A stretch of DNA of 14,769 nucleotides from Escherichia coli (GTDB lineage: Bacteria > Pseudomonadota > Gammaproteobacteria > Enterobacterales > Enterobacteriaceae). The notes beneath the pieces are model-generated. The model worked only from the letters and a program-made list of their open reading frames with translations. It did no database searches and had not been told where the DNA came from. This document shows, one piece after another, positions 194-13,727 of the stretch (its first letter is position 1; each line of letters opens with the position of its first letter). The stretch lies in the NCBI GenBank assembly GCA_005397905.1, contig GCA_005397905.1_4318.1, one strand, 5' to 3'. A program made the translations under genes and the position numbers.

Positions 194-206
194 TTCATCA
201 CCTCAA

Positions 207-2710: not shown

Positions 2711-2750
2711 CACGAATTGCTAAAGACGTATCGGTGAAGTGGTGTATTAT
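2708..2750 (+). promoter_or_regulatory. TAGCAC-type promoter-like element
   Basis: TAGCAC 2708-2713 (its TAG is the stop codon of the VRR-NUC gene), TTGCTA 2717-2722, 22-bp spacer, TATTAT 2745-2750. The -10 sits in the loop of a 7-bp dyad (2735-2741 / 2751-2757). Confidence 0.55.
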
Positions 2751-2783
2751 CACTTCATCGAAAACAAACTGGGAGATAAAAAA

Positions 2784-2984
2784 ATGAATACTATCTATAC
2801 TGCTAAATTCTACGAATCACGCAAAACTGGTTACAAATATGAATTAGGAATTACACCTGATTCTTATATTCTGGTTGATGTTGAAGATGAAAACTATGCA
2901 TTCGAAGTTAGTCCGACCTACAAAGATGATTTAGAGACTGTTAAAAACGCATTTGGCGAAAAATTTGATGAGGTATTAGAATAA
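2784..2984 (+). CDS. hypothetical protein (66 aa)
   Basis: ATG at 2784 preceded by GGGAGA; the track start at 2739 is GTG inside the promoter element, so the downstream ATG is preferred. Leader contains CATCGAAAAC. Confidence 0.55.
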   Translation: MNTIYTAKFYESRKTGYKYELGITPDSYILVDVEDENYAFEVSPTYKDDLETVKNAFGEKFDEVLE

Positions 2985-3202
2985 TGAAATTAACCTTTGA
3001 CAAGCAATGGGAAGTTTTTAAGCTAATGGCGGTTCATGAGCTAAAGAAATCTGGATATAACAAAAACCCGTTGGACTTAGCATTTTGCCTAGATATGAGT
3101 TTTGAGGAAGACTACTTGAACACTGATATTGAAACATGGCGCGACCGTATGATTGCTGATATCGAAGAAATGAAAAAAGATTGCCCGGAGGATTTCTTAT
3201 GA
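2984..3202 (+). CDS. hypothetical protein (72 aa)
   Basis: ATG overlaps the upstream stop (TAATG); GAGGT about 10 nt upstream. Confidence 0.5.
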   Translation: MKLTFDKQWEVFKLMAVHELKKSGYNKNPLDLAFCLDMSFEEDYLNTDIETWRDRMIADIEEMKKDCPEDFL

Positions 3203-3399
3203 TTACTGCTACATGTGTAAAAACGAACGGCTCGTTCACTTTATTTAATGAGTATGAATTCAAGATAGACCCGATAAATGACCAGGTTGAAATAGTTAGC
3301 GATGACGGATTTGCATGGAAGTTACATAATGAATTTGATGGTTACTACGGGTGTAATGATTCGAAAGGCAAGCATGTAAGTTTTCTTGTTTATGAGTAA
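3199..3399 (+). CDS. hypothetical protein (66 aa)
   Basis: ATG at 3199 overlaps the upstream stop (ATGA) with GGAGG 8 nt upstream; the track start at 3181 is TTG. Stop TAA directly precedes a TAGCAC element. Confidence 0.5.
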   Translation: MITATCVKTNGSFTLFNEYEFKIDPINDQVEIVSDDGFAWKLHNEFDGYYGCNDSKGKHVSFLVYE

Positions 3400-3400
3400 A

Positions 3401-3443
3401 TAGCACTTTTTGTTAAAACTCCAATCCATGGATTGATTATATT
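3401..3443 (+). promoter_or_regulatory. TAGCAC-type promoter-like element
   Basis: TAGCAC 3401-3406, TTGTTA 3410-3415, 22-bp spacer holding a perfect 12-bp palindrome AATCCATGGATT (3423-3434), TATATT 3438-3443. Confidence 0.55.
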
Positions 3444-3473
3444 AATCACACCAATAACGCAGAGGATTTAATA

Positions 3474-3599
3474 ATGAAGATTGTAGACAAAGAGATGTTT
3501 GAGATCGCGCAGGTTTATGCAAATGACGCAGTGAAAACTGGTTCTGATTATTGCTGGATGTGTGCTAAAGAATACCTGAAAATGGCTTACGGATTATGA
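3474..3599 (+). CDS. hypothetical small protein (41 aa)
   Basis: ATG 3474 with AGAGGA 7 nt upstream; MKIVDKEMFEIAQVYANDAVKTGSDYCWMCAKEYLKMAYGL; stop overlaps the next ATG (ATGA). Below the track length cutoff. Confidence 0.4.
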   Translation: MKIVDKEMFEIAQVYANDAVKTGSDYCWMCAKEYLKMAYGL

Positions 3600-3838
3600 T
3601 AGTTGAAACCGGACGTGACGCCGTATGGGCTCATTGTGGAGAGGCTGGTTTGCAGGATGATATTAAACAGATATCCCGCTTCTTTGACATAAAAGATATC
3701 AGCGTCGTGTTCAATGGTAAATTCTCTTACATGGATGAGAGACCAAGAAAATACGTAAGAGTTAAGCCTGGTGTAAGGATTGATGTTAACGAATTCCTTA
3801 AATCTCAGGGATGCAAATTTAAGATAACGAAGGCGTAA
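3596..3838 (+). CDS. hypothetical protein (80 aa)
   Basis: ATG-initiated ORF translationally coupled to the upstream small ORF. Confidence 0.5.
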   Translation: MIVETGRDAVWAHCGEAGLQDDIKQISRFFDIKDISVVFNGKFSYMDERPRKYVRVKPGVRIDVNEFLKSQGCKFKITKA

Positions 3839-3841
3839 ATT

Positions 3842-4093
3842 ATGTTGGGATTGGATTTTCAGCCAGAGCATTACGACTTAGTGCATGGACATGGTGGGAA
3901 GAAGTTTAGAGCGATACCTATTCCTGATTGGTTTCCTCCTGACTATGTTGATGTTAATGCGAAGACAAATGATGGCAGGTGGGTTCAGATTTACTACTCC
4001 CCAGCGTGTGGAAACCTTTGCATGACTGACCTTGATCAAAAATTAGCAATTAGTGCGGAATTGATAGACTACTGGTTGAAAGAAGTTGAATGA
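3842..4093 (+). CDS. hypothetical protein (83 aa)
   Basis: ATG 3842 with GAAGG upstream; same strand and operon context. Confidence 0.5.
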   Translation: MLGLDFQPEHYDLVHGHGGKKFRAIPIPDWFPPDYVDVNAKTNDGRWVQIYYSPACGNLCMTDLDQKLAISAELIDYWLKEVE

Positions 4094-4176
4094 CGAGCCT
4101 AATACTAGTAGCATCGTTACCACTGTTTAGCTTTACCATCTTATACTTTATCGTAATGAATTAAGGAACTTATATA

Positions 4177-5313
4177 ATGGCAACTGCAAAGATTACCAAC
4201 GAACAACTTCGTGAAGAACTGGCAAATGGCATGACAAACAAAGAAATCGCAGAGAAATACGGAATGAACATTCGCAATGTTGAATTGCGTCGTAGTAAAT
4301 TGGCAAAATCCGGCGAGCTTCATGGAAACCCTGGGATTAAGAAGCTAGTTCCTGACGGCTATTTGGTCAAAGGGACTTCAACGATGATTGATGCGGAAGG
4401 TAACGAGAAGATCCGGTGGGTTAAGACCTCAATTGATAATGAGCGCCTTGAGGTTCTTATGGAGCAGGCTCGAGAAGCATTTTGCTCTGAGTTGCCAAAG
4501 GCAGTTCCATCTGAATCACCTAATGTTAACTTTGACGATAACACGCTTGCGATGTATCCGGTTTTTGATTTACACATTGGAGCAATGGCACACAAACATG
4601 AGTGCGGCGAAAACTACGACACAGCGACAGCCGAGAAGGTAATGAATGGATTCTTTGATTACGCCGTAGATAAGGCCCCAAACTCAAAGAATGCTGTATT
4701 GGTATTGGGTGGCGATTTCCTACATTACGATTCCCTGGAGGCTAAAACCCCGGCCTCAGGCCATATCTTAGACTCTGACAGTCGTTACGCTAAGATTGTT
4801 TATGTTGCAATCCGTTCAGTACGACGTGCAATTTCTCGAATGATGGAAAAGCATCAAGTCATTGATATTAAAGTAATAAGCGGAAATCACGACGAGGCTG
4901 GAATGGTTTGGCTCCGCGCTGCACTTGCTGCATTTTATGAATATGAGCCTCGCGTAAATGTTGATGTTAGCCCAGCTGCAATGATGATGACCAGCTTTGG
5001 AACGACGCTTATTGGATACACTCACGGGCACCAAATGCGGAAAGCCGATACTCGACTAACTGTTATGGCAACTGATTTTCGTAAGTTATTTGGTCAAAGT
5101 GAGTATGTTTACACACATAGTGGCCACTGGCATTCGCAGAAGATTACAGAAACAAACTTGGGAATTGATGAGGTTCATGGGCAGCTGGGAAGTCCTGATG
5201 CGTACTCCGCAAATGGCGGCTGGCGCTCTCAACGTCAAGCGGCAGTTATTGTCTACCATAAAGAATTCGGTGAAGTTGGGCGATTCATTTGTCGCCCTAA
5301 AATGTTTAGCTAA
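4177..5313 (+). CDS. N-terminal helix-turn-helix domain fused to a calcineurin-like metallophosphoesterase (Mre11/SbcD-type fold)
   Basis: 378 aa. HTH-like MTNKEIAEKYGMNIRNVELRRSKL at the N-terminus; phosphoesterase motifs in order: DLH (VFDLHIGAMAH), GDxxxxD (VLGGDFLHYD), GNHDE, THGH, GHWH. AAGGA RBS upstream. Confidence 0.8.
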   Translation: MATAKITNEQLREELANGMTNKEIAEKYGMNIRNVELRRSKLAKSGELHGNPGIKKLVPDGYLVKGTSTMIDAEGNEKIRWVKTSIDNERLEVLMEQAREAFCSELPKAVPSESPNVNFDDNTLAMYPVFDLHIGAMAHKHECGENYDTATAEKVMNGFFDYAVDKAPNSKNAVLVLGGDFLHYDSLEAKTPASGHILDSDSRYAKIVYVAIRSVRRAISRMMEKHQVIDIKVISGNHDEAGMVWLRAALAAFYEYEPRVNVDVSPAAMMMTSFGTTLIGYTHGHQMRKADTRLTVMATDFRKLFGQSEYVYTHSGHWHSQKITETNLGIDEVHGQLGSPDAYSANGGWRSQRQAAVIVYHKEFGEVGRFICRPKMFS

Positions 5314-5356
5314 TAGCGCTTTTTGTTAAAAAACCCCCAGGTTACTGGGGTATAAT
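5314..5356 (+). promoter_or_regulatory. TAGCAC-type promoter-like element (variant TAGCGC)
   Basis: TAGCGC 5314-5319 directly after the stop TAA 5311-5313; TTGTTA 5323-5328; hairpin CCCCAG-GTTA-CTGGGG (5335-5350) in the spacer; TATAAT 5351-5356. Confidence 0.55.
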
Positions 5357-5425
5357 TATCTTGCTTTCAACGAGGAGAATAAATAATTAAAATTGTGGGT
5401 TATTAATAAGATGGAGAATTAGATA

Positions 5426-5980
5426 ATGACCAAATTGTTTATACTGAATGGGCCAGCTGGGGTCGGCAAAGATACAATTGCTGACGTCATGGTTAGTTCT
5501 GGCGCTTGCTGTGAGAAGGTTTCTTTTAAGTCACCCGTGTTTGATGTGGCTAAGGGTATGTTATCAAGCGATGAATTTGATTGGTTTATTGAAAACTACA
5601 ACAATAGAGACGAGAAAGATAAACCTCAGAAAATTCTCGGAGGTAAAACTATTCGAGAGTTTATGATATGGATTAGCGAATCAGTAATGAAACCTGTTTT
5701 TGGTAATGATGTCTTCGGCAGGAGATTGGCTAGTTCACTTGGTGATGGTTGCTATATTTGTGCTGACGGTGGATTTGCTAGCGAGATTGAGCCACTGATC
5801 GACGCTGGTGTTAAGGTCACGTTAATCAGGTTGCATAGGGCAGGGTACACATTTTATGGCGATAGTCGCTCATATATTCACGGGGTGTGTGAAAGAGAGA
5901 TTGATGTTCATGTTGTTGATGGTGATATTAATGGAACATCAGCATTGGTAAGGCACGTAATAAATAGCACGAATTGCTAA
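5426..5980 (+). CDS. deoxynucleoside monophosphate kinase-like P-loop kinase
   Basis: 184 aa; Walker A LNGPAGVGKDT; the N-terminal stretch KLFILNGPAGVGKDTIADVMVS resembles the N-terminus of the T4 gene 1 dNMP kinase as I recall it. GGAGA RBS. Protein ends ...NSTNC with the stop TAA supplied by a TTGCTAA element. Confidence 0.65.
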   Translation: MTKLFILNGPAGVGKDTIADVMVSSGACCEKVSFKSPVFDVAKGMLSSDEFDWFIENYNNRDEKDKPQKILGGKTIREFMIWISESVMKPVFGNDVFGRRLASSLGDGCYICADGGFASEIEPLIDAGVKVTLIRLHRAGYTFYGDSRSYIHGVCEREIDVHVVDGDINGTSALVRHVINSTNC

Positions 5981-6007
5981 AGATAATAGTAAAAACTGGG
6001 TTATCAT
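5965..6007 (+). promoter_or_regulatory. TAGCAC-type promoter-like element
   Basis: TAGCAC 5965-5970 inside the 3' end of the kinase gene; TTGCTA 5974-5979 (its TAA is the kinase stop); 22-bp spacer; TATCAT 6002-6007; leader CATCGAAACGAG...AACGAGGA. Confidence 0.55.
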
Positions 6008-6046
6008 TAACACATCGAAACGAGATGAACCAAACGAGGAAAAAAA

Positions 6047-6223
6047 ATGACTAAAATGACTTACTGCACCAAGAACAACTCCAAGACACTGCCATTTACG
6101 GTTAACCAGCCTTACAATGCCGAGTATCAGGGTGACGGATACTACAAAATTTACGGCGACGATATGACGTGGATTTTAGCGCCGATTGATGGTTCGCTTG
6201 TTGAATTTATTATCGCTGACTAG
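6047..6223 (+). CDS. hypothetical small protein (58 aa)
   Basis: ATG 6047 with ACGAGGA about 7 nt upstream; MTKMTYCTKNNSKTLPFTVNQPYNAEYQGDGYYKIYGDDMTWILAPIDGSLVEFIIAD; followed by an intrinsic terminator. Below the track length cutoff. Confidence 0.5.
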   Translation: MTKMTYCTKNNSKTLPFTVNQPYNAEYQGDGYYKIYGDDMTWILAPIDGSLVEFIIAD

Positions 6224-6249
6224 CGCAGAAAAAACATAGCTTTACAAGC

Positions 6250-6276
6250 GGGGGGCCTTTTGGCTCCCCTTTTTTG
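6250..6276 (+). terminator. rho-independent terminator
   Basis: 8-bp GC-rich stem (6250-6257 / 6262-6269, one G-U pair), TTTT loop, then a 6-T tract (6270-6275). Confidence 0.7.
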
Positions 6277-6354
6277 TGCTTCTTTTACGAACAGGGCTAC
6301 TGTATCATGTTTACACTAACTTAAATATTGACAAATAGACAAATGGAGGATCAC

Positions 6355-6570
6355 ATGAGGGAAGTCATCAACGCCGCTACGGCATCAACTGGCGGTGCTG
6401 CGGTAACTGGAGCGGCAACTGGTCAGATGACTATAGCAATAATCAGCCTTATCGCTCTAATCATTTTTGGTGCCTGGGGTGCTTACTGGAAGTTTAAGGA
6501 TAGCCAGGCGATTCGTCGAGCCCTTGAATCTGGCGACCTAAAAACAGCAATCAAGATAAGGAGCAAGTAA
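6355..6570 (+). CDS. holin, probable pinholin (two TMDs)
   Basis: 71 aa from ATG 6355 (GGAGG 5 nt upstream): a weakly hydrophobic Ala/Gly-rich TMD1, a strongly hydrophobic TMD2 (ISLIALIIFGAWGAYW) and a charged C-terminal tail. An in-frame ATG at 6343 gives a possible dual-start; the track start 6328 is TTG. Sits directly upstream of a SAR endolysin. Confidence 0.6.
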   Translation: MREVINAATASTGGAAVTGAATGQMTIAIISLIALIIFGAWGAYWKFKDSQAIRRALESGDLKTAIKIRSK

Positions 6571-7056
6571 ATGAAGCAGAAGCTGGCAATCAGTGCGGCC
6601 ACGGCTGCGGCAATATACATCGCAGCGCCGCTTATTGAGCTTGTCGAGGGAGTAGAGAACAAGCCATACATGGACATTGCCGGGATACCTACAGTCTGCG
6701 CGGGTATCACTGGTCCCGACGTAGTTTGGGGCAAGACTTACAGCAACAGGGAGTGCCGGAACTTACTGGAGAAACACATTCAGATTCATGCCAAGCATGT
6801 TCAGAATGCAGTTACCTACCCAATTGCACCGCAGACAAGGGCGGCGTTAATCAGCTTTAGCTATAATGTTGGCGGTCATGCAATGAGGAATTCTACCGCT
6901 GTAAGGCTAATTAACCAGGGTAAGGTGGAGCAGGGTTGCAATGCCCTCGGGATGTGGACAAAGGCCACCGTTAATGGCAAGAAGGTTGTCGTTAAGGGGT
7001 TAGTGAATCGCAGGAATGAGGAGATTAAGTTATGCTTAAGTGGATTGCAGCGTTAG
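6571..7056 (+). CDS. SAR endolysin, T4-lysozyme-type (GH24) muramidase
   Basis: 161 aa; N-terminal signal-anchor-release-like segment LAISAATAAAIYIAAPLIELV followed by the E-x8-D-x5-T catalytic pattern of T4 lysozyme (EGVENKPYMDIAGIPT). AAGGAG RBS; start abuts the holin stop. Confidence 0.88.
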   Translation: MKQKLAISAATAAAIYIAAPLIELVEGVENKPYMDIAGIPTVCAGITGPDVVWGKTYSNRECRNLLEKHIQIHAKHVQNAVTYPIAPQTRAALISFSYNVGGHAMRNSTAVRLINQGKVEQGCNALGMWTKATVNGKKVVVKGLVNRRNEEIKLCLSGLQR

Positions 7057-7771: not shown

Positions 7772-7774
7772 TAA

Positions 7775-9358
7775 TTACCCCAGCAGTCGCGGATTAATGT
7801 AAACCTTATCACCAATCAGGCAGGTGTAGTTTTTCTCATCAAGCATCGGAAGTAAATGGTCTTTAATCTTAGCCATTACGCCAGCCTGACCCTCAAACGG
7901 CCTAACCTTGCGTGCTGATTCATATAGTGAACGAAGTCCTACAACGCCCTTACTGTTCTTTCCTTGCTTAATCAATATGTCAATTAACTTGTTCATCTCT
8001 GCATTATCGCCAGCGTGACCAGCCGAACTAGCAGCAGAAAGGTAAGTTTTACTTTGTTCGTAAAACATGATAATTGCCTCTTGCATTGTCTCTAGGTCAA
8101 TTTGCCTTGACTTCAATGGCCGCTCATTATTCTTGCATGACCAGTTTCTTATTGTATGAAGAATTGCCGCCATTCGAATAACTTGCTTATCCATCTTGCC
8201 AAGAGCGCCACGCAGCATAGAGTGAGAGTATTTACCTCCATCCGCAAGGTGCGGCTCCATATCCTGGCGTGCTAGATTAAGATATCGCATAGCTGATTCT
8301 GAAATAGATAAATTAACTTGTGTTTCGTTCATAATGTTGTGAATCATTCTAAAGTAATCAGCTTTCAATTCGCCATCAACCGGTTCGTATGTCGACTCAC
8401 CTTTTTCATTAATAAAAACGCGATTTCCAATCATGGGGCGCTCCCTAACCAGCCAGAATCGCTCAGATACACCTATACCACGAGCACCAGCCTCCATAAT
8501 TGCATTGATTGTTTCATCCTGAGCTATTACAGCTATTGCGCCAAGCGCGGTAAACATCAAGTTGTTGTCAGCATTGGCGCGAGATATTGATATATTTCCA
8601 GAATCCCACGCCTTAAGAACTAACTCACTGTTTGTTTTCTTGCTGCCATCTCCGTAGGTCATCCCAAGCAATGAGTTAATTGCCGTTGCTTCGTCTGATA
8701 TTACCGCAAAGTTACCCTGTCGACTGTTTATTCGAGCCAGACCTTCAGGTGTTGTATCAGATACCGGAAAGACAATATCACACAGCTTTTCTAACTTCTC
8801 TTCTAAATCCTCTTTCTCCTCAAACAATGACGCCATTTCGGATGGCGACTTCTCCTGCTTCATCTCTTTCGCCAGCGCTGATAGCTTGGCCATAATCTTT
8901 TTTCTTTCACGCTTTCGCTGGTCATTGATTCGCTCAACCTCGGCTACCATTGGAGCTATTGCGAGTGAGTTAATGGCTGACTTACCAGTCGATGGTGGCT
9001 GGCTGGTTACTACGTACAGTGAGGTTGGTTGCTGCGTTCCGTGATACTCAACAGTAAAACGCCCTAGCATGGCAGCGGAAATACACCCCAGGAAATGCAT
9101 GTATGCGGAAGACTCTGGGAACTGAACAGATCGAGCGATATTGGATGAGAGTTTGCCAACAACATCAATATCATTTCCGAGTGAGATTACGGGATACTTG
9201 TCATTTGCAGCATCAATCTCCACTGGTGCTTTCCAGAATGATTGAGACTGGCGATAGCCATTTGCATTAATGGCGACTCGCAGTGGTGGGAGGTTGTCTG
9301 CGGCAGCAATTGCCATAACCTGTTCAACAGATAGTTTATCTTCGTTGAAATCAAACAT
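7775..9358 (-). CDS. P-loop NTPase of unknown function (527 aa), RecA/DnaB-like Walker A
   Basis: Walker A-like VVTSQPPSTGKSAI (about residues 115-128), Walker B-like FAVISDE (about 217-223), a highly charged predicted helix between them; GGAGAG RBS. N-terminal 43 aa and C-terminal 55 aa are homologous to the 181-aa ORF at 12482-13027. Confidence 0.8.
   Translation of the reverse strand: MFDFNEDKLSVEQVMAIAAADNLPPLRVAINANGYRQSQSFWKAPVEIDAANDKYPVISLGNDIDVVGKLSSNIARSVQFPESSAYMHFLGCISAAMLGRFTVEYHGTQQPTSLYVVTSQPPSTGKSAINSLAIAPMVAEVERINDQRKRERKKIMAKLSALAKEMKQEKSPSEMASLFEEKEDLEEKLEKLCDIVFPVSDTTPEGLARINSRQGNFAVISDEATAINSLLGMTYGDGSKKTNSELVLKAWDSGNISISRANADNNLMFTALGAIAVIAQDETINAIMEAGARGIGVSERFWLVRERPMIGNRVFINEKGESTYEPVDGELKADYFRMIHNIMNETQVNLSISESAMRYLNLARQDMEPHLADGGKYSHSMLRGALGKMDKQVIRMAAILHTIRNWSCKNNERPLKSRQIDLETMQEAIIMFYEQSKTYLSAASSAGHAGDNAEMNKLIDILIKQGKNSKGVVGLRSLYESARKVRPFEGQAGVMAKIKDHLLPMLDEKNYTCLIGDKVYINPRLLG
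9233..9262. repeat. 30-nt perfect inverted repeat, copy A (inside the NTPase gene)
   Basis: rc of 9233-9262 = AATGGCTATCGCCAGTCTCAATCATTCTGG, identical to 12584-12613, while flanking synonymous sites have diverged. Confidence 0.9.
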
Positions 9359-9388
9359 TACTTCTCTCCGTATTGTTTTTGAGAGGCC

Positions 9389-9431
9389 ATTATATCAACG
9401 GCCTCTTATAAAGCATTATCAATTTGTGCTA
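9389..9431 (-). promoter_or_regulatory. TAGCAC-type promoter-like element
   Basis: Minus strand reads TAGCAC-AAA-TTGATA, 22 bp, TATAAT (plus 9431-9389); the -10 lies in the loop of dyad AGAGGCC / GGCCTCT (9382-9388 / 9400-9406). Confidence 0.55.
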
Positions 9432-9784: not shown

Positions 9785-10134
9785 TTGTATTGAGCCTCAA
9801 AGCGATAGTCTCCGCAAACTGTAACAAATCCAACATCTTCGTCACGATATAGCTGCCATGCGCTTCCCTCTTTATCGTAAATGTATCCAGCACGCTGCCC
9901 AAGTCCAGCATGGAGATCTACTTGATATCGCTTCCCTTCGGTGAAGTATTTACGAATGGATGAGCGATGATTAACCTTTGTGCAGTAAATTGTCTTGGTC
10001 TTAATATACTTGCCGCGCTCTTCAAGGTTAATCCATTTCCCATCTTTCTTGATTTGTTCTACACCATCTTTAACGCGAGCTTTGTATAGTACGTTTTCGT
10101 TGCTAATCCAGTTTTTGGTAATCGTAGTAGTCAT
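9781..10134 (-). CDS. hypothetical protein (117 aa)
   Basis: Start chosen at the ATG giving MTTTITKNW... (plus 10134) because the track start 10179 lies inside the promoter -10; conserved leader CATCGAAACGAAACAACGAAGGG precedes it. Confidence 0.55.
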   Translation of the reverse strand: MTTTITKNWISNENVLYKARVKDGVEQIKKDGKWINLEERGKYIKTKTIYCTKVNHRSSIRKYFTEGKRYQVDLHAGLGQRAGYIYDKEGSAWQLYRDEDVGFVTVCGDYRFEAQYK

Positions 10135-10170
10135 TTCTTTTACCCTTCGTTGTTTCGTTTCGATGAGTTT

Positions 10171-10213
10171 AATATACATGAAAAGCCACGAAGGGTTTTA
10201 GCAATTAGTGCTA
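10171..10213 (-). promoter_or_regulatory. TAGCAC-type promoter-like element
   Basis: Minus strand TAGCAC-TAA-TTGCTA (plus 10213-10199), 22 bp, TATATT (plus 10176-10171). Confidence 0.55.
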
Positions 10214-10362
10214 TTTCGTGCTTTTTCTATGGCCTTGAGCATAATCTCATGACTCTCAAGCAAGTCATCGCGGAACCAATCACCGCAAGGCCAGCCTTTT
10301 CCGCTGTAGGTGCTGATTACCTCAAGATCGAAATAATTTATCTCAGATGGTAGAAGCATCAT
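10198..10362 (-). CDS. hypothetical small protein (54 aa)
   Basis: Minus-strand ATG at 10362 overlapping the upstream stop (ATGA), GAGGTG RBS; MMLLPSEINYFDLEVISTYSGKGWPCGDWFRDDLLESHEIMLKAIEKARNSTNC; ends in the same ...NSTNC-stop inside the TAGCAC element as the kinase gene. Confidence 0.45.
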   Translation of the reverse strand: MMLLPSEINYFDLEVISTYSGKGWPCGDWFRDDLLESHEIMLKAIEKARNSTNC

Positions 10363-10598
10363 TTCACCTCGTCAAAAGTTGCAATCCCAGGGATAAACAT
10401 TCCAACCTTCCAGCCTGCAATGGCAATCCATCCAGAATCGTGCTTATGCGGTCGCTCAGCGCCATTAATCAACCATTCGTTCGGGATTGTCTTGCCGTTA
10501 ATGATTAGCGGCTCAGCGTCGTATACAGAGCCTTTTACGAATGGTGTTAAAACTTTCTTGTCGGTGCTCGCAATAACGTTGGTGCAGCGAATTTTCAT
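10359..10598 (-). CDS. hypothetical protein (79 aa)
   Basis: ATG with GAGGA RBS; same strand as the flanking small genes. Confidence 0.5.
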   Translation of the reverse strand: MKIRCTNVIASTDKKVLTPFVKGSVYDAEPLIINGKTIPNEWLINGAERPHKHDSGWIAIAGWKVGMFIPGIATFDEVK

Positions 10599-10608
10599 AT
10601 CTCAATCC

Positions 10609-10788
10609 TCAAATAAATGGTAAACATTCATTACAGCCAAGTCCATCACAGCACATGAATTCATCATCTGACTGGAATTGCTTAGCCAAATCAATGTCCA
10701 ACTTTCCGCGCACCACAAGGTCGGTGTAATCTTCGTTCAGCCCAATCAGTGAGCATTCGTGGAGTAACTCATCTTTATCAATCTTCAT
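10609..10788 (-). CDS. hypothetical small Cys-rich protein (59 aa)
   Basis: Second in-frame ATG (MKIDKD...) preferred over track start 10794 on AAGGGG spacing; C-terminal CCDGLGCNEC cluster suggests metal binding. Confidence 0.45.
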   Translation of the reverse strand: MKIDKDELLHECSLIGLNEDYTDLVVRGKLDIDLAKQFQSDDEFMCCDGLGCNECLPFI

Positions 10789-10816
10789 ATCCATCCCCTT
10801 GTTGTTAGTGAGTTAA

Positions 10817-10859
10817 CTGTAGCCTCGCCAGCAACAGATGTCTTTAGCAAAAAGTGCTA
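10817..10859 (-). promoter_or_regulatory. TAGCAC-type promoter-like element (weak -10)
   Basis: Minus strand TAGCAC-TTT-TTGCTA (plus 10859-10845); the -10 at the expected distance is only TACAGT/CTACAG-like. Confidence 0.4.
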
Positions 10860-10861
10860 CT

Positions 10862-11053
10862 TCAGAAATTGATGTTCTCGACAACATGAACCATCTGATA
10901 ACCAAGGCGATAACTGTCACCGAGGATTAATCGACCCATAAACTGATCGTTTGTGAAGCTCTCCTTACCCATAGTGCGAAGCGTTCCGTTATGGATGATG
11001 GTGTCACCAATCTTTACGTCATTCTTATGCGTCAAAACAATATTATTGCTCAT
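10862..11053 (-). CDS. hypothetical protein (63 aa)
   Basis: ATG (MSNNIV...) with GAGGTG 6 nt upstream; the track start 11062 is GTG. Stop TGA lies 2 nt before a TAGCAC element. Confidence 0.5.
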   Translation of the reverse strand: MSNNIVLTHKNDVKIGDTIIHNGTLRTMGKESFTNDQFMGRLILGDSYRLGYQMVHVVENINF

Positions 11054-11067
11054 TATCAACACCTCTA

Positions 11068-11250
11068 TTACATGTGTTTCAGGTAGAAAGCGATTTCTTT
11101 AATGTTGTCTTCTGGATGAGCCTTCACGACTACCGCTAACATCTTCTCAACCAGAGTCTTGCTGCTCTCAGGGTTATAACCTTCCTGAACCAGTAGGGCG
11201 ATAGTGTTTTCGACGGTGACTGGTGAGTTTTTGTTGATGCGCTTAGCCAT
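11068..11250 (-). CDS. hypothetical protein (60 aa)
   Basis: First gene of the leftward operon; AAGGA RBS; leader CATCGAAACGACACGCACTAAAGGAAACC. Confidence 0.5.
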   Translation of the reverse strand: MAKRINKNSPVTVENTIALLVQEGYNPESSKTLVEKMLAVVVKAHPEDNIKEIAFYLKHM

Positions 11251-11287
11251 GATGGTTTCCTTTAGTGCGTGTCGTTTCGATGAGGTA

Positions 11288-11331
11288 ATAATAGCAAATC
11301 ACAGTCTTTTGATTATTAGCAAAAAGTGCTA
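11288..11331 (-). promoter_or_regulatory. TAGCAC-type promoter-like element
   Basis: Minus strand TAGCAC-TTT-TTGCTA (plus 11331-11317), 23 bp, TATTAT (plus 11293-11288). Confidence 0.5.
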
Positions 11332-11357
11332 TTCGTTAGATTTATGTATTGTTGCAG

Positions 11358-11418
11358 ATATTGCAATGATTCACATGACTATTGCACATATAGCAATATT
11401 GCTTCCGATGCAATGATG
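11358..11418. promoter_or_regulatory. cluster of ATTGCAAT-type palindromic operator-like sites
   Basis: ATATTGCAATGAT (11358-11370), ATTGCACATATAGCAAT (11381-11397) and GATGCAATGATG (11407-11418) share TTGCA / TGCAAT half-sites. Confidence 0.35.
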
Positions 11419-11419
11419 T

Positions 11420-11502
11420 TTTTGATTGTTGCGAAAAGTGAAATGAAGTGGTGATTGAGTGAATGAAGGATTGATGGACTACCATACAAGTTGATTTTGA
11501 TT
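11420..11502. repeat. direct-repeat array with GATTG core (five copies) plus TGAA(A)TGAAG repeats
   Basis: TTGATT/GATTGA at 11422, 11453, 11469, 11491 and 11497; TGAAATGAAG (11439-11448) and TGAATGAAGG (11460-11469). Confidence 0.4.
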
Positions 11503-11645
11503 CTGGCTGAGCCATTTTGAGCATACGCGTTATAAAAGTTATGCCGTGTGGATGCGCCAGCTCCCCGCGGGAATCATGTACGCCTATCACGCTAAATTAC
11601 GCAATGGTTACATAATAATATCTATATATATCAACCATTTAGTAA

Positions 11646-11666
11646 TATTATTATTATTATTATTAT
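11646..11666. repeat. (TAT)7 trinucleotide microsatellite in an AT-rich tract
   Basis: Seven uninterrupted TAT units at 11646-11666, flanked by (TA)n and further AT-rich sequence. Confidence 0.8.
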
Positions 11667-11726
11667 ATACGTGTATATAATGTAGATAGTGGATATTGGA
11701 TATTGCGATAGTTTTCTATGATTTTT

Positions 11727-11762
11727 TCCTACACTTGTAGGAATGGTACTACACTGTAGGAA
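11727..11762. promoter_or_regulatory. two adjacent palindromic operator-like sites sharing a TGTAGGA half-site
   Basis: TCCTACA-CT-TGTAGGA (11727-11742) and CTACA-C-TGTAGG (11749-11760), centres about 21 bp apart. Confidence 0.4.
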
Positions 11763-11891
11763 TAAATAGGCATATATGGGCCAATCCACCATAAAAACTG
11801 ATGTACAAGCTGTACACGGTTTTACATTGAGCTATATCTGGGGTTGTGAGCTGAAAAGCGTAAATAAATTGAATTAAACCATGAATAACAC

Positions 11892-11920
11892 TTGATAACA
11901 TGTAACCGCGATGATATTAT
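11892..11920 (+). promoter_or_regulatory. canonical sigma70 promoter with extended -10 (TTGATA-17-TGaTATTAT)
   Basis: -35 TTGATA 11892-11897, 17-bp spacer, TG at 11912-11913, -10 TATTAT 11915-11920; about 40 nt upstream of the ATG at 11961 (CAGGAG RBS). Confidence 0.65.
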
Positions 11921-11960
11921 GCACCCATCTTAACGAAGGAAACCAATCAGGAGTATATCT

Positions 11961-12482
11961 ATGTCAAATCGCATTCAACCAGTAAGCCTTGGTGATGTTA
12001 TCCGCTACATGGCTAAGCAGGCGCTTAAGGCCGACAATCGGACTTTCCATGTTCCAATCCACCTGATAGCTCGCCAGGTTTACGGGCTAACGTCTGATGA
12101 TATTGGTCGAATCAGCGCTGAGGATCTCGAGAGTGGCGGCAAATACAGTTTGGCAAAGTTGAAGGCTTCATATGTCTCTAACACAGTTGCCAGGATGCCA
12201 GAGATTCAGGAGGCGAACGTTCGGGCTAAGCTGTCAATCAAGGACGGAGACTTTGGGGATGATGTTGATGTTCGATGCGCATACATCACCTTGGTCGATG
12301 GGGCAATACAGACAGGAAAGAGAGTGATGGCCAACAACCAGGTAGCCGATAAGGCTGTAAGCGACTTTAAGGCTAGAATCCTCAAGCTGATGCCATCAGT
12401 GACTGAGTTTGAAGGTGATGAGATTACCGGAGCCATCAAAGCAATTAAGATGTACCAGGAAATGATTAAGGAGGCAAAATAA
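11961..12482 (+). CDS. hypothetical protein (173 aa), first gene behind the canonical promoter
   Basis: ATG with CAGGAG RBS; no recognisable motif. Confidence 0.65.
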   Translation: MSNRIQPVSLGDVIRYMAKQALKADNRTFHVPIHLIARQVYGLTSDDIGRISAEDLESGGKYSLAKLKASYVSNTVARMPEIQEANVRAKLSIKDGDFGDDVDVRCAYITLVDGAIQTGKRVMANNQVADKAVSDFKARILKLMPSVTEFEGDEITGAIKAIKMYQEMIKEAK

Positions 12483-13027
12483 TGGGGATGTTTGATTTTA
12501 ACGAAGATAAGCTAACTAATGATGAGATTATGAAGATTGCCATGCGGGATGGACTTCCTCCGCTACGGGTTGCAATCAACGCTAATGGCTATCGCCAGTC
12601 TCAATCATTCTGGTGTAGTGTTGAGGAGTTGCTCAGCGCAAAGCTCAACAGCAAGTCTGGCGTAGTTATGTGTAAGATTCACGGACAGAGCAGGAATGGC
12701 AAGGGGGTTGTCGGAATTCGATCAACATATGAAGCGCTGAGAAAGGTCAAGCCATTCGCCGGACTCAACGGAGTCATGCATGACCTGAAAAATAACATCC
12801 TGCCATCGTTACAGGACGCAGGAATCATCTGCTTAATCGGGGATAAGATTTACGTGCATCCATACATCGTTGGCATGCATGCGATAGAAGTTGAAGAGTG
12901 GTGCGACACCTGGGCTGTTGATGAGCATGCTAGTAGACTACCATACCACTTACGGTACGACGAAGATGAGGTAGAGAAGGCGATTGAGTTCTACCGGAAA
13001 GCTAAATCACTCCTGACCGGTAAATAG
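12482..13027 (+). CDS. hypothetical protein (181 aa), truncated paralog of the 527-aa NTPase lacking the P-loop core
   Basis: MFDFNEDKL...LPPLRVAINANGYRQSQSFW matches the NTPase N-terminus (20 consecutive residues identical); KGVVGIRSTYEALRKVKPF...CLIGDKIYVHP is about 55% identical to the NTPase C-terminus; no Walker motifs. AAGGAGG RBS; stop TAG is part of a TAGCAC element. Confidence 0.75.
   Translation: MGMFDFNEDKLTNDEIMKIAMRDGLPPLRVAINANGYRQSQSFWCSVEELLSAKLNSKSGVVMCKIHGQSRNGKGVVGIRSTYEALRKVKPFAGLNGVMHDLKNNILPSLQDAGIICLIGDKIYVHPYIVGMHAIEVEEWCDTWAVDEHASRLPYHLRYDEDEVEKAIEFYRKAKSLLTGK
12584..12613. repeat. 30-nt perfect inverted repeat, copy B (inside the paralog gene)
   Basis: AATGGCTATCGCCAGTCTCAATCATTCTGG at 12584-12613, in inverted orientation relative to 9233-9262. 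Confidence 0.9.
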
Positions 13028-13067
13028 CACTAATTGCTAAACAATAAATCGGGTAGTCAGCTATGAT
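13025..13067 (+). promoter_or_regulatory. TAGCAC-type promoter-like element
   Basis: TAGCAC 13025-13030 (TAG is the stop of the paralog gene), TTGCTA 13034-13039, 22 bp, TATGAT 13062-13067. Confidence 0.5.
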
Positions 13068-13098
13068 TACCATATCAACCAAACGAGAGGGAAGAAAG

Positions 13099-13203
13099 AT
13101 GATTATTATTAAAGATTTTCATGGCGGCGAGCTGATGATTCAGAAATCATTCCATTTAAAGACAGGTATCAGCCTTATTGAGATTGAGTTCGACTGGGAC
13201 TGA
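13099..13203 (+). CDS. hypothetical small ORF (34 aa), possibly the 5' part of an interrupted gene
   Basis: ATG 13099 with GAGGG RBS and conserved leader; the same frame stays open for 31 more codons after its TGA (to 13299). Confidence 0.3.
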   Translation: MIIIKDFHGGELMIQKSFHLKTGISLIEIEFDWD

Positions 13204-13295
13204 TGTCAGGATGGTCATAGCTACAAGCACCTGAGTTTAGAAAATGCAGTAAAGCTTCGTGACGAGATGTCGAAACTTATTGAGGAATTATCAAA

Positions 13296-13523
13296 ATGAT
13301 TACCATCAACCTGTCAGACAAGCAGGCGGCAGAACTCAAGTCCATGATGAACTCTTTCATGCCAACGCGCTGCGACGGTCAGCGTAATGTGGTAGATGAA
13401 GTTAGAGACCAAATCAACAATCAGCAATTCGACGTTAGTGACTTCGAGTCATCACGTCAATATGAGGCGATGAGTGTCAACGCTGCATACCTGGCTAATT
13501 GGGATAAGGAAACGAAGAAATGA
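13296..13523 (+). CDS. hypothetical protein (75 aa)
   Basis: ATG with GAGGA RBS. Confidence 0.55.
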   Translation: MITINLSDKQAAELKSMMNSFMPTRCDGQRNVVDEVRDQINNQQFDVSDFESSRQYEAMSVNAAYLANWDKETKK

Positions 13524-13657
13524 TTTACATCCACACTTACTACACTGGCAAGTTCAATAGCGTTAAGCACGTTCGGGTTCACGATACCTACGATAGCGCA
13601 AAGGCTCAGTGGTTGGTTCTTGGCGGCGATATTAATTCATATAGAATCGCTGAGTAG
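13520..13657 (+). CDS. hypothetical small protein (45 aa)
   Basis: ATG overlapping the upstream stop (ATGA); MIYIHTYYTGKFNSVKHVRVHDTYDSAKAQWLVLGGDINSYRIAE; stop TAG is the TAG of a TAGCAC element. Confidence 0.4.
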   Translation: MIYIHTYYTGKFNSVKHVRVHDTYDSAKAQWLVLGGDINSYRIAE

Positions 13658-13697
13658 CACGAATTGTTAAAACAGCATTGGGGTAATTTGTTATAAT
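13655..13697 (+). promoter_or_regulatory. TAGCAC-type promoter-like element
   Basis: TAGCAC 13655-13660, TTGTTA 13664-13669, 22 bp, TATAAT 13692-13697 within dyad TGGGGTAAT/ATTGCCCCA; leader CATCGAAACTAACGAGGAAG. Confidence 0.55.
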
Positions 13698-13727
13698 TGC
13701 CCCATCGAAACTAACGAGGAAGCAGAA

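What the first reader, a model, noticed from the sequence alone, without database searches (positions are those of the whole stretch)
2735..13704. Dyad symmetry of variable sequence but fixed position around the -10 of the TAGCAC elements
Several elements carry a hairpin-capable dyad in the 22-bp spacer or around the -10: TGAAGTG/CACTTCA (2735-2757), the perfect 12-bp palindrome AATCCATGGATT (3423-3434), CCCCAG-GTTA-CTGGGG (5335-5350), AGAGGCC/GGCCTCT (9382-9406) and TGGGGTAAT/ATTGCCCCA (13679-13704). Sequences differ but placement is the same, which favours a structural role (cruciform or RNA hairpin) over a shared protein site. If read-through transcripts exist, these would be intercistronic RNA hairpins.
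Basis: seen in the sequence. Interest (0 to 1): 0.45.

Follow-up and report, generated by a model that had tools for sequence, protein, structure and literature searches.

The report
RNA hairpins nested inside phage promoters
In this T1/Rtp-like coliphage, most copies of a repeated promoter-like cassette carry a small hairpin of variable, co-evolving sequence packed between the conserved TAGCAC box and the likely transcription start; the evidence points to an RNA hairpin at the end of the upstream gene's message, not a DNA cruciform or protein site.

Summary
All five dyads sit at the stated coordinates. Four fold significantly better than shuffles; the fifth, the 12-bp palindrome at 3423-3434, is not significant alone.

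The window is an Rtp-like Drexlerviridae phage. Its 11 elements share one layout: TAGCACnnnTTGyTAAA, a 22-bp spacer, a TATAAT-like hexamer, 6 bases, then ATCGAAAC.

Across 108 non-redundant elements from relatives, the 35-nt variable segment folds at -7.97 kcal/mol against -3.86 for a column-permutation null (z = -21.5). Stems lie between box positions +18 and +48, ending at the inferred +1. Related copies show compensatory changes with G·U intermediates.

Three asymmetries favour a sense-strand RNA structure over a cruciform:
- Internal G·T outnumber A·C mispairs 36 to 14.
- The sense strand folds better than the antisense.
- GNRA/UNCG tetraloops occur 8 times on the sense strand and never on the antisense.

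Seven operon-first elements lack hairpins. Only 13 of 85 stems have a U tract, and stems are far too short for RNase III.

Best reading: these are intercistronic hairpins at the 3' end of the upstream cistron, a minority being true terminators. The 21-nt box was published in 2024. The nested, covarying hairpin was not described in the literature I could search.

The parts
2708..2757 (+). TAGCAC element with a bracketing hairpin. Box 2708-2722; the TAG at 2708-2710 is the stop codon of ORF 2291..2710. Hexamer TATTAT 2745-2750. Inferred +1 is A2757. Arms TGAAGTG 2735-2741 and CACTTCA 2751-2757.
   Evidence: Fold -9.5 kcal/mol, z -2.5. Relatives show TGAAGTG/CACTTCA, TGAGGTG/CACCTCA and TGAGTTG/CAACTCA, plus G·U intermediates; 98% of cells pair.
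3401..3450 (+). TAGCAC element with box 3401-3415 and hexamer TATATT 3438-3443. The palindrome AATCCATGGATT 3423-3434 is a decayed form of the hairpin ATCCA-tgga-TGGAT found in Rtp and T145P1. A small second stem is TGATTA 3434-3439 / TAATCA 3443-3448.
   Evidence: Fold -4.8 kcal/mol, z -1.2. 12-bp palindromes are no more frequent than chance. Orthologue comparison.
5314..5363 (+). Variant element (TAGCGC) with box 5314-5328. Hairpin CCCCAG-gtta-CTGGGG 5335-5350 lies inside the spacer and abuts hexamer TATAAT 5351-5356.
   Evidence: Fold -12.0 kcal/mol, z -1.9. The scan calls it terminator-like only on the minus strand, where the box's A run supplies the T run. The orthologous site in Rtp (40396) carries a different hairpin, TGCCG-taaaaat-GCGGCA.
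13025..13074 (+). TAGCAC element with box 13025-13039; its TAG is the stop codon of ORF 12482..13027. Hexamer TATGAT 13062-13067. Hairpin GGTAGTCA 13052-13059 / TGATTACC 13064-13071 has one G·U pair and overlaps the hexamer.
   Evidence: Fold -10.3 kcal/mol, z -4.6, 0 of 200 shuffles as good. Conserved in six relatives.
13655..13704 (+). TAGCAC element with box 13655-13669; its TAG is the stop codon of ORF 13520..13657. Hexamer TATAAT 13692-13697. Inferred +1 is A13704. Arms TGGGGTAAT 13679-13687 and ATTGCCCCA 13696-13704 bracket and overlap the hexamer.
   Evidence: Fold -13.6 kcal/mol, z -2.8. Its 44-member family shows 5 of 8 pairs with double changes and abundant G·U.
9382..9431 (-). TAGCAC element on the minus strand with box 9431-9417 and hexamer TATAAT 9394-9389. 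Arms AGAGGCC / GGCCTCT occupy 9406-9400 and 9388-9382 and bracket the hexamer. It lies upstream of the 527-aa gene 9358..7775.
   Evidence: Fold -15.2 kcal/mol, z -4.6. Relatives carry AGCGGTC/GGCCGCT and AGCGGTC/GACCGCT; 100% of cells pair.
5965..6014 (+). TAGCAC element with box 5965-5979 and hexamer TATCAT 6002-6007. It has only a weak dyad, GATAA 5982-5986 / TTATC 6001-6005.
   Evidence: Fold -4.0 kcal/mol, z -1.6.
207..256 (+). First element of its operon (TAGCAT variant), upstream of the helicase gene 295..2289. The upstream neighbour is the divergent HTH regulator gene. No hairpin.
   Evidence: Fold -3.0 kcal/mol, z +0.3. Context from the Rtp annotation. All 7 operon-first elements examined are weak.
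10164..10213 (-). TAGCAC element with box 10213-10199 and hexamer TATATT 10176-10171. Relatives carry the UUCG-tetraloop hairpin GCCC-ttcg-GGGC plus a T run; here it has decayed to ACCCTTCGTGGC.
   Evidence: Fold -1.7 kcal/mol, z -0.1. Orthologues.
10810..10859 (-). TAGCAC element with box 10859-10845 and hexamer TACAGT at a 23-bp spacer. No significant hairpin.
   Evidence: Fold -6.6 kcal/mol, z -0.2.
11282..11331 (-). First TAGCAC element of the leftward gene block. It borders the roughly 600-bp non-coding region. Box 11331-11317, hexamer TATTAT at a 23-bp spacer. Only an A/T dyad; no hairpin.
   Evidence: Fold -1.8 kcal/mol, z -0.2.

Best explanation
The dyads are hairpins of the sense-strand RNA. 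They form in transcripts that start at an upstream promoter and read through the cassette.

Each cassette is extremely compact. The stop codon of the upstream gene lies in or next to the TAGCAC box. The box is itself the inverted repeat TAGCA-N5-TGCTA, centred about -42. Then come a 22-bp free spacer, a sigma-70-type -10 hexamer, a 6-nt discriminator, and the conserved start region ATCGAAAC followed by the ribosome-binding site.

The only unconstrained bases are the spacer and the discriminator. The end-of-cistron hairpin has been packed into them, with the hexamer tolerated in the loop or in an arm.

A minority, those with an A-run/stem/T-run layout, are ordinary intrinsic terminators. Most lack a U tract. 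I infer that these act as 3' barriers against exonucleolytic decay of the upstream cistron, as weak pause or attenuation signals, or as local-fold insulators of the downstream 5' UTR.

Shown here: the excess of structure, its boundaries, the covariation, and the strand asymmetry. Inferred: the transcription start site, the existence of read-through RNA, and the biochemical role.
For: **Excess structure.**
- In 108 non-redundant elements the mean MFE is -7.97 kcal/mol, against -3.86 +/- 0.19 for the column-permutation null (z -21.5).
- 56 of 108 elements have at least 6 Watson-Crick pairs, against 11.8 expected.

**Boundaries.** 5' arms are enriched at +18 to +31. 3' arms are enriched at +32 to +36 and +42 to +48. 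The profile returns to the null from +49, the A of cATCGAAAC, which is 7 nt after the hexamer.

**Covariation.**

**Sense-strand RNA signature.**
- G·T 36 against A·C 14, where the null gives 12.4 against 12.6.
- Sense-minus-antisense MFE is -1.10 against a null of -0.40 (z -4.1).
- GNRA/UNCG loops occur 8 times on the sense strand and 0 on the antisense.

**Link to an upstream cistron.**
- In 83 of the 104 elements that could be assessed, an open frame of at least 40 codons ends at the box. In 43 of these the stop is the box's own TAG.
- Those 83 fold at -8.95 kcal/mol, against -5.12 for the 21 without such a frame (p = 3e-4).
- All 7 elements with no co-directional upstream gene in the annotations fold weakly, mean -2.5 kcal/mol.

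**Read-through is expected.** On the + strand no canonical terminator lies between 207 and 6250, or between 11892 and the window end. On the - strand none lies between 11331 and 7429.

**Annotators already treat some as terminators.** The T1 record annotates the hairpin inside the element at 41957 as a rho-independent terminator (41978-42000). TLS lists T62 and T57 directly after repeats DR12 and DR10.
Against: - No transcript data exist for this phage family in the library I searched. The start site and the read-through are therefore inferences.
- The upstream-cistron association loses significance under a stricter element filter (-8.02 against -6.26, n = 8, p = 0.15).
- Only 13 of 85 stems are followed by at least 5 T in 8 nt, so termination cannot be the general role. 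The stabiliser and insulator roles are untested.
- Four of the 11 window elements have no significant hairpin, and two more (3401, 5965) have only weak ones, so it is not obligatory.
- The tight 3' boundary at -1 could also reflect a promoter-level function.
Confidence: 0.55

Rival explanations
1. The dyad has a promoter-intrinsic role at the DNA level. It extrudes as a cruciform, or otherwise alters melting or geometry around the -10, and so tunes promoter strength or compensates for the odd 22-bp distance to TTGCTA.
For: The arms sit precisely around the hexamer and end at -1. The discriminator, which affects open-complex stability (own knowledge), is one of the arms.
Against: - A cruciform needs both strands to pair, yet mispairs are strongly biased to G·T on the sense strand (36 against 14).
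- Loops are of the RNA-stable GNRA/UNCG types on the sense strand only (8 against 0).
- Loops of 5-21 nt with stems of 5-8 bp are poor cruciform formers (own knowledge).
- Operon-first promoters with the same box and hexamer lack the dyad.
- The three layouts leave very different spacer geometries.
Confidence: 0.1
2. The hairpin is the 5'-terminal structure of the cassette's own transcript. Transcription would start upstream of the hairpin, directed by the TAGCAC box through a redirected polymerase, and the hairpin would protect the 5' end.
For: The box resembles the sigma-54 -24/-12 motif TGGCAC-N5-TTGC. A start about 12 nt after TTGC would fall just before the hairpins (sequence; own knowledge of the sigma-54 consensus).
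Against: - The spacing is N3, not N5, and the motif has AG, not GG.
- A sigma-70-type hexamer is conserved at a fixed 22 bp (312 of 377). TATAGT, TATAAT, TATTAT, TATATT and TATGAT account for most copies in the first seven-source sample. The conserved ATCGAAAC follows 6 nt later, which fits a normal -10 and start.
- Operon-first elements lack hairpins.
- The TLS reannotation reports no polymerase or sigma gene in these phages (PMC11447400).
Confidence: 0.1
3. The hairpins are RNase III processing sites between cistrons, as in T7. This is the check the first reader proposed.
For: They are intercistronic and lie next to promoters, as several T7 RNase III sites do (own knowledge).
Against: Stems have 5-11 Watson-Crick pairs, with none longer in 108 elements. 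E. coli RNase III substrates need about 20 bp of mostly continuous duplex (own knowledge). No Rfam family matches.
Confidence: 0.05
4. All the hairpins are intrinsic terminators that make each cassette an independent transcription unit, the 'transcripton' idea proposed for T1.
For: Some are canonical A-run/GC-stem/T-run terminators, for example L003 32675, L044 1575 and T1 41957. Others are annotated as terminators in T1 and TLS.
Against: Only 13 of 85 stems are followed by at least 5 T in 8 nt. The bracketing class averages 1.4 T and is followed by the conserved ATCGAAAC. None of the window's cited dyads is called terminator-like on its sense strand.
Confidence: 0.15
5. The dyads are chance dyads in A/T-rich promoter DNA.
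For: Individually weak cases exist. These include 3401 (z -1.2), 5965 (z -1.6), and the 12-bp palindrome count, which is at expectation.
Against: The family-level z is -21.5. Self against non-self complementarity is reached by 0 of 2000 permutations. Covariation is documented.
Confidence: 0.02

Closest known systems
21-nt direct repeats aaATAGCACnnnTTGnTAAAA of phage TLS (German, Misra and Kropinski reannotation, PMC11447400, 2024)
   Same: The box sequence, its orientation with transcription, its position about 76 nt upstream of start codons, and its many copies per genome all match. The authors say the repeats also occur in T1, Rtp and Rogue1.
   Different: That paper treats only the 21-nt repeat and leaves its function open (stoperator, enhancer site or UP element). 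It does not report the -10 hexamer at 22 bp, the conserved ATCGAAAC, or the hairpin between them. Its Table S1 lists two terminators directly after repeats without comment.
Intrinsic (rho-independent) terminators between phage genes, as annotated in T1 and TLS
   Same: A GC-rich stem with a short, often UNCG or GNRA, loop lies just after a stop codon. A subset here has the full A-run/stem/T-run form.
   Different: Most stems here lack the U tract. They instead run into, or straddle, the -10 hexamer of the next promoter, and their 3' arm is the promoter's discriminator.
Intercistronic stabiliser hairpins: REP elements in E. coli operons and CUUCGG hairpins in T4 intercistronic regions (own knowledge: Newbury et al. 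1987; Tuerk et al. 1988)
   Same: These are stable hairpins of variable stem sequence, without a U tract, placed downstream of a cistron in polycistronic RNA. UUCG-type loops are present in both.
   Different: REPs share a conserved sequence, whereas these do not. The role in decay is untested here. Nesting inside a promoter core is not a feature of REP or T4 hairpins as far as I know.
Class II activator-dependent or extended -10 promoters, such as lambda PRM with cI centred at -42 (own knowledge)
   Same: An inverted-repeat site is centred about -42 and replaces a -35 hexamer. A sigma-70 -10 hexamer is present, often with G at -14. A Cro/C2-like HTH gene is encoded nearby.
   Different: Binding of the regulator to the box and activation are untested. 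This concerns the cassette, not the dyads themselves.

Membership tests
Drexlerviridae 21-nt TAGCAC direct repeat (TLS 'DR' elements) | Consensus aaATAGCACnnnTTGnTAAAA in many copies per genome. | tested here: met
   The window has 11 copies with at most 1 mismatch, where 0.83 are expected for up to 2 mismatches. The consensus rebuilt from 108 non-redundant elements is aaATAGCACtaaTTGcTAAAac.
Drexlerviridae 21-nt TAGCAC direct repeat (TLS 'DR' elements) | Oriented with transcription, intergenic, about 76 nt upstream of the next start codon. | tested here: met
   All 11 point toward the next ORF. Examples: box 2708 to ATG 2785 (77 nt) and box 13655 to ATG 13728 (73 nt).
Intrinsic (rho-independent) terminator | GC-rich stem of at least 5 bp with a short loop. 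| tested here: met
   85 of 108 elements have at least 5 Watson-Crick pairs. 4-nt loops dominate the class lying upstream of the hexamer.
Intrinsic (rho-independent) terminator | A U tract immediately after the stem. | tested here: not met
   Only 13 of 85 stems have at least 5 T in the next 8 nt, and bracketing stems average 1.4 T. None of the window's dyads is called on its sense strand. A minority do qualify.
RNase III processing site | About 20 bp (two turns) of largely continuous double-stranded RNA. | tested here: not met
   The longest ungapped stem has 11 Watson-Crick pairs, and the mode is 5-8.
Sigma-70 (extended) -10 promoter | A TAnnnT hexamer at a fixed position, with a start about 7 nt downstream. 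| tested here: met
   377 of 451 box hits have a hexamer at 21-23 bp, 312 of them at exactly 22. In the first seven-source sample TATAGT, TATAAT, TATTAT, TATATT and TATGAT dominate. The conserved cATCGAAAC begins 6-7 nt after the hexamer.
Sigma-70 (extended) -10 promoter | TG at -15/-14, or a -35 hexamer at 16-18 bp. | tested here: inconclusive
   G at -14 is the majority base, but T at -15 is not (consensus). The standard -35/-10 scan calls only one element (13025, a weak 9-of-12 match using TAAACA as its -35) and none through TTGyTA.
Sigma-70 (extended) -10 promoter | Experimentally mapped transcription start. | not testable with these tools
   No transcriptome or start-site data for Drexlerviridae were found.
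Sigma-54 promoter | TGGCAC-N5-TTGC, that is GG and GC exactly 10 bp apart. | tested here: not met
   The box is TAGCAC-N3-TTGC in all copies, 2 bp too short and with AG in place of GG.
DNA cruciform / symmetric palindrome | Pairing equally good on both strands. | tested here: not met
   G·T 36 against A·C 14. Sense beats antisense beyond the null (z -4.1). Tetraloop families occur on the sense strand only.
N4-type hairpin promoter | A 5-7 bp stem with a 3-nt loop, read by a phage-encoded virion RNA polymerase. | tested here: not met
   Loops range from 3 to 21 nt. The TLS reannotation reports no polymerase gene in this family.
3' stabiliser hairpin (REP-like function) | Protects the upstream mRNA segment from 3'-to-5' decay. 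| not testable with these tools
   Only the anatomy fits: a stable stem 18-48 nt after the stop codon, with no U tract.

The most novel reading that the evidence does not exclude
The cassette may be a portable, self-contained gene-boundary module. It would combine three-frame stop codons, an operator-like box, an RNA hairpin, an activator-dependent -10 promoter and a standard 5' UTR. In this reading the hairpin is not just a leftover terminator. It would be an evolved insulator that makes the downstream 5' UTR identical in context whether the message starts at this promoter or reads through from upstream. Alternatively, it could couple passage of a read-through polymerase to firing of the embedded promoter. 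Such a module could also be the unit of recombination behind the mosaic small-gene arrays of Drexlerviridae.
Probability: 0.15. Interest if true: 0.65.

Novelty: new variant of a known kind. Interest (0 to 1): 0.45.

Why it matters
T1-like phages are common, are used in phage therapy collections, and contaminate industrial cultures. Even so, how they programme transcription is essentially unknown. The TAGCAC repeat was described only in 2024, and its function was left open.

This analysis adds three things. First, the repeat is the upstream part of a fixed-geometry cassette with a -10 hexamer and a conserved start region. Second, a covarying sense-RNA hairpin is packed into the promoter core in most copies. 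Third, together these give a concrete, testable model of gene boundaries in this family.

It is also a clean natural example of two overlapping codes. The same 30 bp must serve as promoter DNA and as an RNA stem, so the promoter's discriminator co-evolves with its spacer. That matters for promoter prediction, for terminator prediction, and for engineering these phages.

Tried and rejected
- **Sigma-54 look-alike.** Rejected on spacing (N3, not N5) and on AG in place of GG.
- **TTGyTA as a normal -35.** Rejected. No conserved hexamer lies 16-18 bp downstream, and the standard scan uses TTGyTA as the -35 for none of the elements; its one hit in an element (13025) relies on a different, weak hexamer.
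- **The 12-bp palindrome as special.** Rejected. The window has 3 such palindromes against 4.1 expected.
- **Rfam.** There was only one chance-level hit.
- **Literature.**
  - The Rtp genome paper is not held.
  - The T1-like genome papers only ran generic promoter finders.
  - No Drexlerviridae start-site or RNA-seq data turned up; the one candidate paper studied a T5-like phage.
  - A full-text search for ATAGCAC found only the TLS paper.
- **Extra orthologues.** IMG/VR scans for the 9431 and 2708 elements returned few loci. Those two covariation tables therefore rest on 7 and 9 sequences and are only modestly significant alone (18-27 of 500 shuffles).
- **Upstream-ORF association.** It was not robust to a stricter definition of bona fide elements (p = 0.15). 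I rely instead on the 7 annotated operon-first cases and flag this line as suggestive only.
- **Offset error.** My first hexamer scan used a wrong offset and was redone.

Full report
**What the window is.** Megablast places the 14.8-kb window in the Rtp-like T1-type coliphages (Drexlerviridae, Braunvirinae). It is about 85% identical to Rtp, JulesPiccard, ZL19 and SU57 over 60-76% of its length. By homology to the Rtp annotation it runs from the 5' end of the HTH regulator gene (rtp52 homologue, window 194..1 on the minus strand) through the helicase, many small genes and the lysis cassette. It then covers a leftward block of small genes, a roughly 600-bp non-coding region, and the first rightward small genes.

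**The elements.** TAGCACNNNTTGYTAA with up to 2 mismatches occurs 12 times, against 0.83 expected.
- Eleven copies are intergenic and point at the next gene: 207, 2708, 3401, 5314, 5965, 13025 and 13655 on the + strand, and 9431, 10213, 10859 and 11331 on the - strand.
- The twelfth (4043-4058, minus strand) is intragenic and lacks the downstream parts.
- Aligned on the box, the elements share one layout: aaTAGCACnnnTTGyTAAA, 22 bp from TTGyTA to a TATAAT-like hexamer, 6 nt, then ATCGAAAC, then the ribosome-binding site.
- In the window plus six complete relatives (Rtp, Msk, T145P1, A110b, 12397V, T1) and 120 IMG/VR stretches, 451 boxes were found. Of these, 377 have a hexamer at 21-23 bp, and 312 at exactly 22.
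- In the first seven-source sample (window plus the six genomes) the hexamers are mostly TATAGT, TATAAT, TATTAT, TATATT and TATGAT. G at -14 is the majority base.
- This is the anatomy of a sigma-70 promoter with no -35. The A of cATCGAAAC sits 7 nt after the hexamer, so it is the likely start. That start is inferred, not mapped.

**The box is already published.** The 2024 reannotation of phage TLS describes a 21-nt direct repeat aaATAGCACnnnTTGnTAAAA, about 76 nt upstream of start codons. It says the repeat also occurs in T1, Rtp and Rogue1, and leaves its function open as stoperator, enhancer site or UP element (PMC11447400). That paper mentions neither the hexamer nor any hairpin. Its Table S1 lists terminators T62 and T57 immediately after repeats DR12 and DR10 without comment. 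A full-text search for the motif found no other paper.

**Checking the observation.** Folding each 35-nt variable segment (spacer, hexamer and 7 nt) as RNA against 200 dinucleotide shuffles gave:

| Element | MFE (kcal/mol) | z |
|---|---|---|
| 2708 | -9.5 | -2.5 |
| 5314 | -12.0 | -1.9 |
| 9431(-) | -15.2 | -4.6 |
| 13655 | -13.6 | -2.8 |
| 3401 | -4.8 | -1.2 |
| 5965 | -4.0 | -1.6 |

- Elements 207, 10213, 10859 and 11331 are at chance.
- The 'perfect 12-bp palindrome' is not notable alone: the window has three such palindromes and 4.1 +/- 2.0 are expected.
- At the same site Rtp has ATCCA-tgga-TGGAT and T145P1 has ATCCA-cgta-TGGAT. The window's palindrome is that hairpin with one arm base changed.
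- Element 10213 has likewise lost a UUCG-loop hairpin (GCCC-ttcg-GGGC) that its relatives keep.

**Is it more than chance?** I reduced the 286 unique 22-bp-spacer elements to 108 that share less than 70% identity in the variable segment.
- Their mean MFE is -7.97 kcal/mol. A null that permutes bases within alignment columns keeps the hexamer and all position-specific composition; it gives -3.86 +/- 0.19 (z = -21.5).
- A first pass on seven sources gave the same picture: -8.19 against -3.57, z -14.8.
- Ungapped stems of at least 6 Watson-Crick pairs occur in 56 of 108 elements, against 11.8 expected.
- A position-resolved profile shows that the excess is confined. 5' arms are enriched at box positions +18 to +31. 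3' arms are enriched at +32 to +36 and +42 to +48. Everything returns to the null from +49, the inferred +1.
Within it there are three layouts:
  - stem wholly upstream of the hexamer: 24 elements;
  - stem overlapping the hexamer: 37;
  - arms bracketing the hexamer: 24;
  - no stem of at least 5 pairs: 23.

**Covariation.**
- The 6-nt discriminator between hexamer and start is highly variable. The commonest sequence occurs 3 times in 108.
- Its exact complement is present in the element's own spacer in 14.8% of cases. For spacers of elements with a different discriminator the figure is 0.3%. With G·U allowed the figures are 24.1% and 3.9%. None of 2000 permutations reached the observed mean.
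- In the 44-member family of the 13655 element, the 8-pair helix is paired in 81% of cells, against 43-61% when the partner is slid. Five pairs show double changes, and 18 cells have double changes against 3.4 +/- 3.1 in shuffles (0 of 500). G·U pairs are abundant.
- The 2708 family has three perfectly paired versions: TGAAGTG/CACTTCA, TGAGGTG/CACCTCA and TGAGTTG/CAACTCA. G·U intermediates connect them, and 98% of cells pair.
- The 9431 family goes from AGAGGCC/GGCCTCT to AGCGGTC/GGCCGCT to AGCGGTC/GACCGCT, with 100% of cells paired.
- These two small families are only modestly significant on their own (18-27 of 500 shuffles).
- At the site of the 5314 hairpin, Rtp has an unrelated hairpin. 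The structure is kept while the sequence is replaced.

**RNA or DNA?** Three independent asymmetries point to a single strand, the sense one.
- Internal transition mispairs inside stems are G·T 36 times and A·C 14 times (binomial p = 0.0026). The column-permutation null gives 12.4 against 12.6.
- The sense strand folds better than its complement by 1.10 kcal/mol, where composition alone gives 0.40 (z = -4.1).
- Among 4-nt loops lying upstream of the hexamer, 8 are GNRA or UNCG on the sense strand and none on the antisense (p = 0.008).

A cruciform, or a palindromic protein site, needs both strands equally, so those readings are disfavoured. The bias follows the direction of the genes for elements on either strand of the genome. 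RNA therefore fits better than some replication-related single strand.

**Whose RNA?**
- The stems end at -1, so a transcript started at the cassette's own promoter would not contain them. They must act in RNA started upstream.
- Such RNA is expected. The terminator scan finds no canonical sense-strand terminator between 207 and 6250, between 11892 and the window end, or between 11331 and 7429 on the minus strand.
- The hairpin begins about 18 nt after the upstream gene's stop codon, and that stop is usually inside the box. In 83 of the 104 elements that could be assessed, an open frame of at least 40 codons ends there. The stop is the box's TAG in 43, the TAA of TTGCTAA in 15, and a TAA 3-4 nt upstream in 18.
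- Elements with such a frame fold at -8.95 kcal/mol, against -5.12 without (p = 3e-4).
- That contrast weakened to -8.02 against -6.26 (n = 8, p = 0.15) when I kept only elements with a strict start motif. I treat it as suggestive.
- A cleaner, smaller test uses the GenBank annotations. All seven elements with no co-directional gene upstream fold weakly, from -0.3 to -4.2, mean -2.5. They are the helicase promoters of this phage and of T1, window 11331, Rtp 46159, 45918 and 28000, and T1 48750. By comparison, 62% of all elements are at or below -6.
- This argues against a promoter-intrinsic role. It also argues against the idea that the hairpin is the 5' end of the cassette's own message.

**What the hairpin does.** Here the evidence thins.
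- A minority are textbook intrinsic terminators with an A run (supplied by the box), a GC stem and a T run. Annotators of T1 and TLS have called such cases terminators.
- Only 13 of 85 stems are followed by at least 5 T in 8 nt. The bracketing class averages 1.4 T and runs into the conserved ATCGAAAC. Termination cannot be the general role.
- My best inference is the ordinary one for U-less intercistronic hairpins. They would act as a barrier to 3' exonucleases that stabilises the upstream cistron after cleavage in the A/U-rich leader. They may also act as a weak pause signal or as a fold insulator for the downstream leader.
- The hairpin sits in the promoter core because, in a roughly 76-nt gap that also holds stop codons, the box, a -10 hexamer, a conserved leader and a ribosome-binding site, the spacer and discriminator are the only free bases. 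I give this reading 0.55.

**Novelty and interest.** The box is known, and intercistronic hairpins and terminators are known. What I could not find described is the cassette geometry and the systematic packing of a covarying sense-RNA hairpin into the -31 to -1 region, which makes a promoter's discriminator co-evolve with its spacer. That is a new variant of a known kind. It would be moderately surprising to a specialist and is directly testable. It does not overturn anything, hence an interest score of 0.45.

**Limits.**
- No transcript data were available.
- The start site is inferred.
- The shuffles do not model phylogeny, although column permutation among related sequences is conservative for the structure test.
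- The Rtp and T1 genome papers could not be read.

Noticed in passing
window 207-221, 2708-2722 and the other boxes; regulator gene at 194..1 (-): The box is itself an inverted repeat, TAGCA-N5-TGCTA, centred about -42 from the inferred start. That is the classic position of a class II activator. A Cro/C2-like HTH regulator (Rtp52 / T1 gp23 homologue) is encoded divergently from the helicase promoter. Pfam gives a sub-threshold P22_Cro hit (26.9 bits against a cut-off of 30.2). The T1 record cites HHpred similarity to the P22 C2 repressor. The box may be this protein's operator.
   Followed up: partly
all boxes, for example 2708-2710, 13025-13027, 13655-13657, 5977-5979: The box region supplies stop codons in all three frames: TAG at position 0, TAA at +13 within TTGCTAA, and TAA at -3 or -4. 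It is the actual stop of the upstream ORF in most elements (43, 15 and 18 of 83). This looks like a universal gene-end and gene-start cassette.
   Followed up: partly
positions +48 to +58 of each element, for example 2756-2766 and 13703-13713: The inferred initial transcribed sequence cATCGAAAC(G)A is conserved across elements and phages. Its role is unknown. It could be a leader or translation signal, a processing site or a pause signal.
   Followed up: no
window 4043-4058 (-): A box-like CCGCACTAATTGCTAA lies antisense inside the 3842..4093 gene. It lacks the hexamer and leader, yet it is conserved at the same place in Rtp, Msk, T145P1, A110b and 12397V.
   Followed up: no
window 4109-4160: The intergenic region upstream of gene 4177..5313 carries a degenerate box (TAGCATcgtTACCAC), a TATACT hexamer at a shorter distance and a TATCG start-like motif. 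It may be a decayed cassette.
   Followed up: no
window 11340-11950: This roughly 600-bp non-coding, A/T-rich region lies between the divergent gene blocks. It holds repeated ATTGCA/TGCAAT motifs, including the palindrome AGCAATATTGCT at 11392. It also holds an (ATT)n run at about 11646-11666. The only near-consensus sigma-70 promoter in the window is here (TTGATA-17-TATTAT with TG, 11892-11920). It could be an early promoter, origin or genome-end region.
   Followed up: no
related loci, for example Rtp L002 4028, 8426, 44965; L003 16796; L010 2570: A recurrent small hairpin with an AGGA or CGGA loop (GCCA-agga-TGGC, CGCA-agga-TGCG, GCCA-cgga-TGGC) lies immediately upstream of the hexamer. AGGA is the commonest 4-nt loop (5 of 23) and is not a known stable tetraloop family.
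   Followed up: no
Rtp L002 33763 (+), with equivalents in L003 23040, L004 26460, L005 22267, L006 27886, T1 34903: A perfect box points against the local genes, between the tail-fibre and primase genes. It has no -10 hexamer and is followed about 35 nt later by a strong bidirectional terminator. It is conserved in all six relatives and lies outside this window.
   Followed up: no
window 5335-5350: On the minus strand this hairpin plus the complement of the box's A run reads as a canonical terminator (CCCCAGTAACCTGGGG GTTTTTTAAC). Hairpins that abut the box can therefore also stop antisense transcription.
   Followed up: partly
alignment A1 columns 33 and 42 (window 13687 / 13696): The fifth base of the -10 hexamer (A or G, giving TATAAT or TATAGT) covaries with a spacer base: UA 16, CG 11, UG 9. 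The RNA stem therefore constrains the choice of promoter hexamer.
   Followed up: partly
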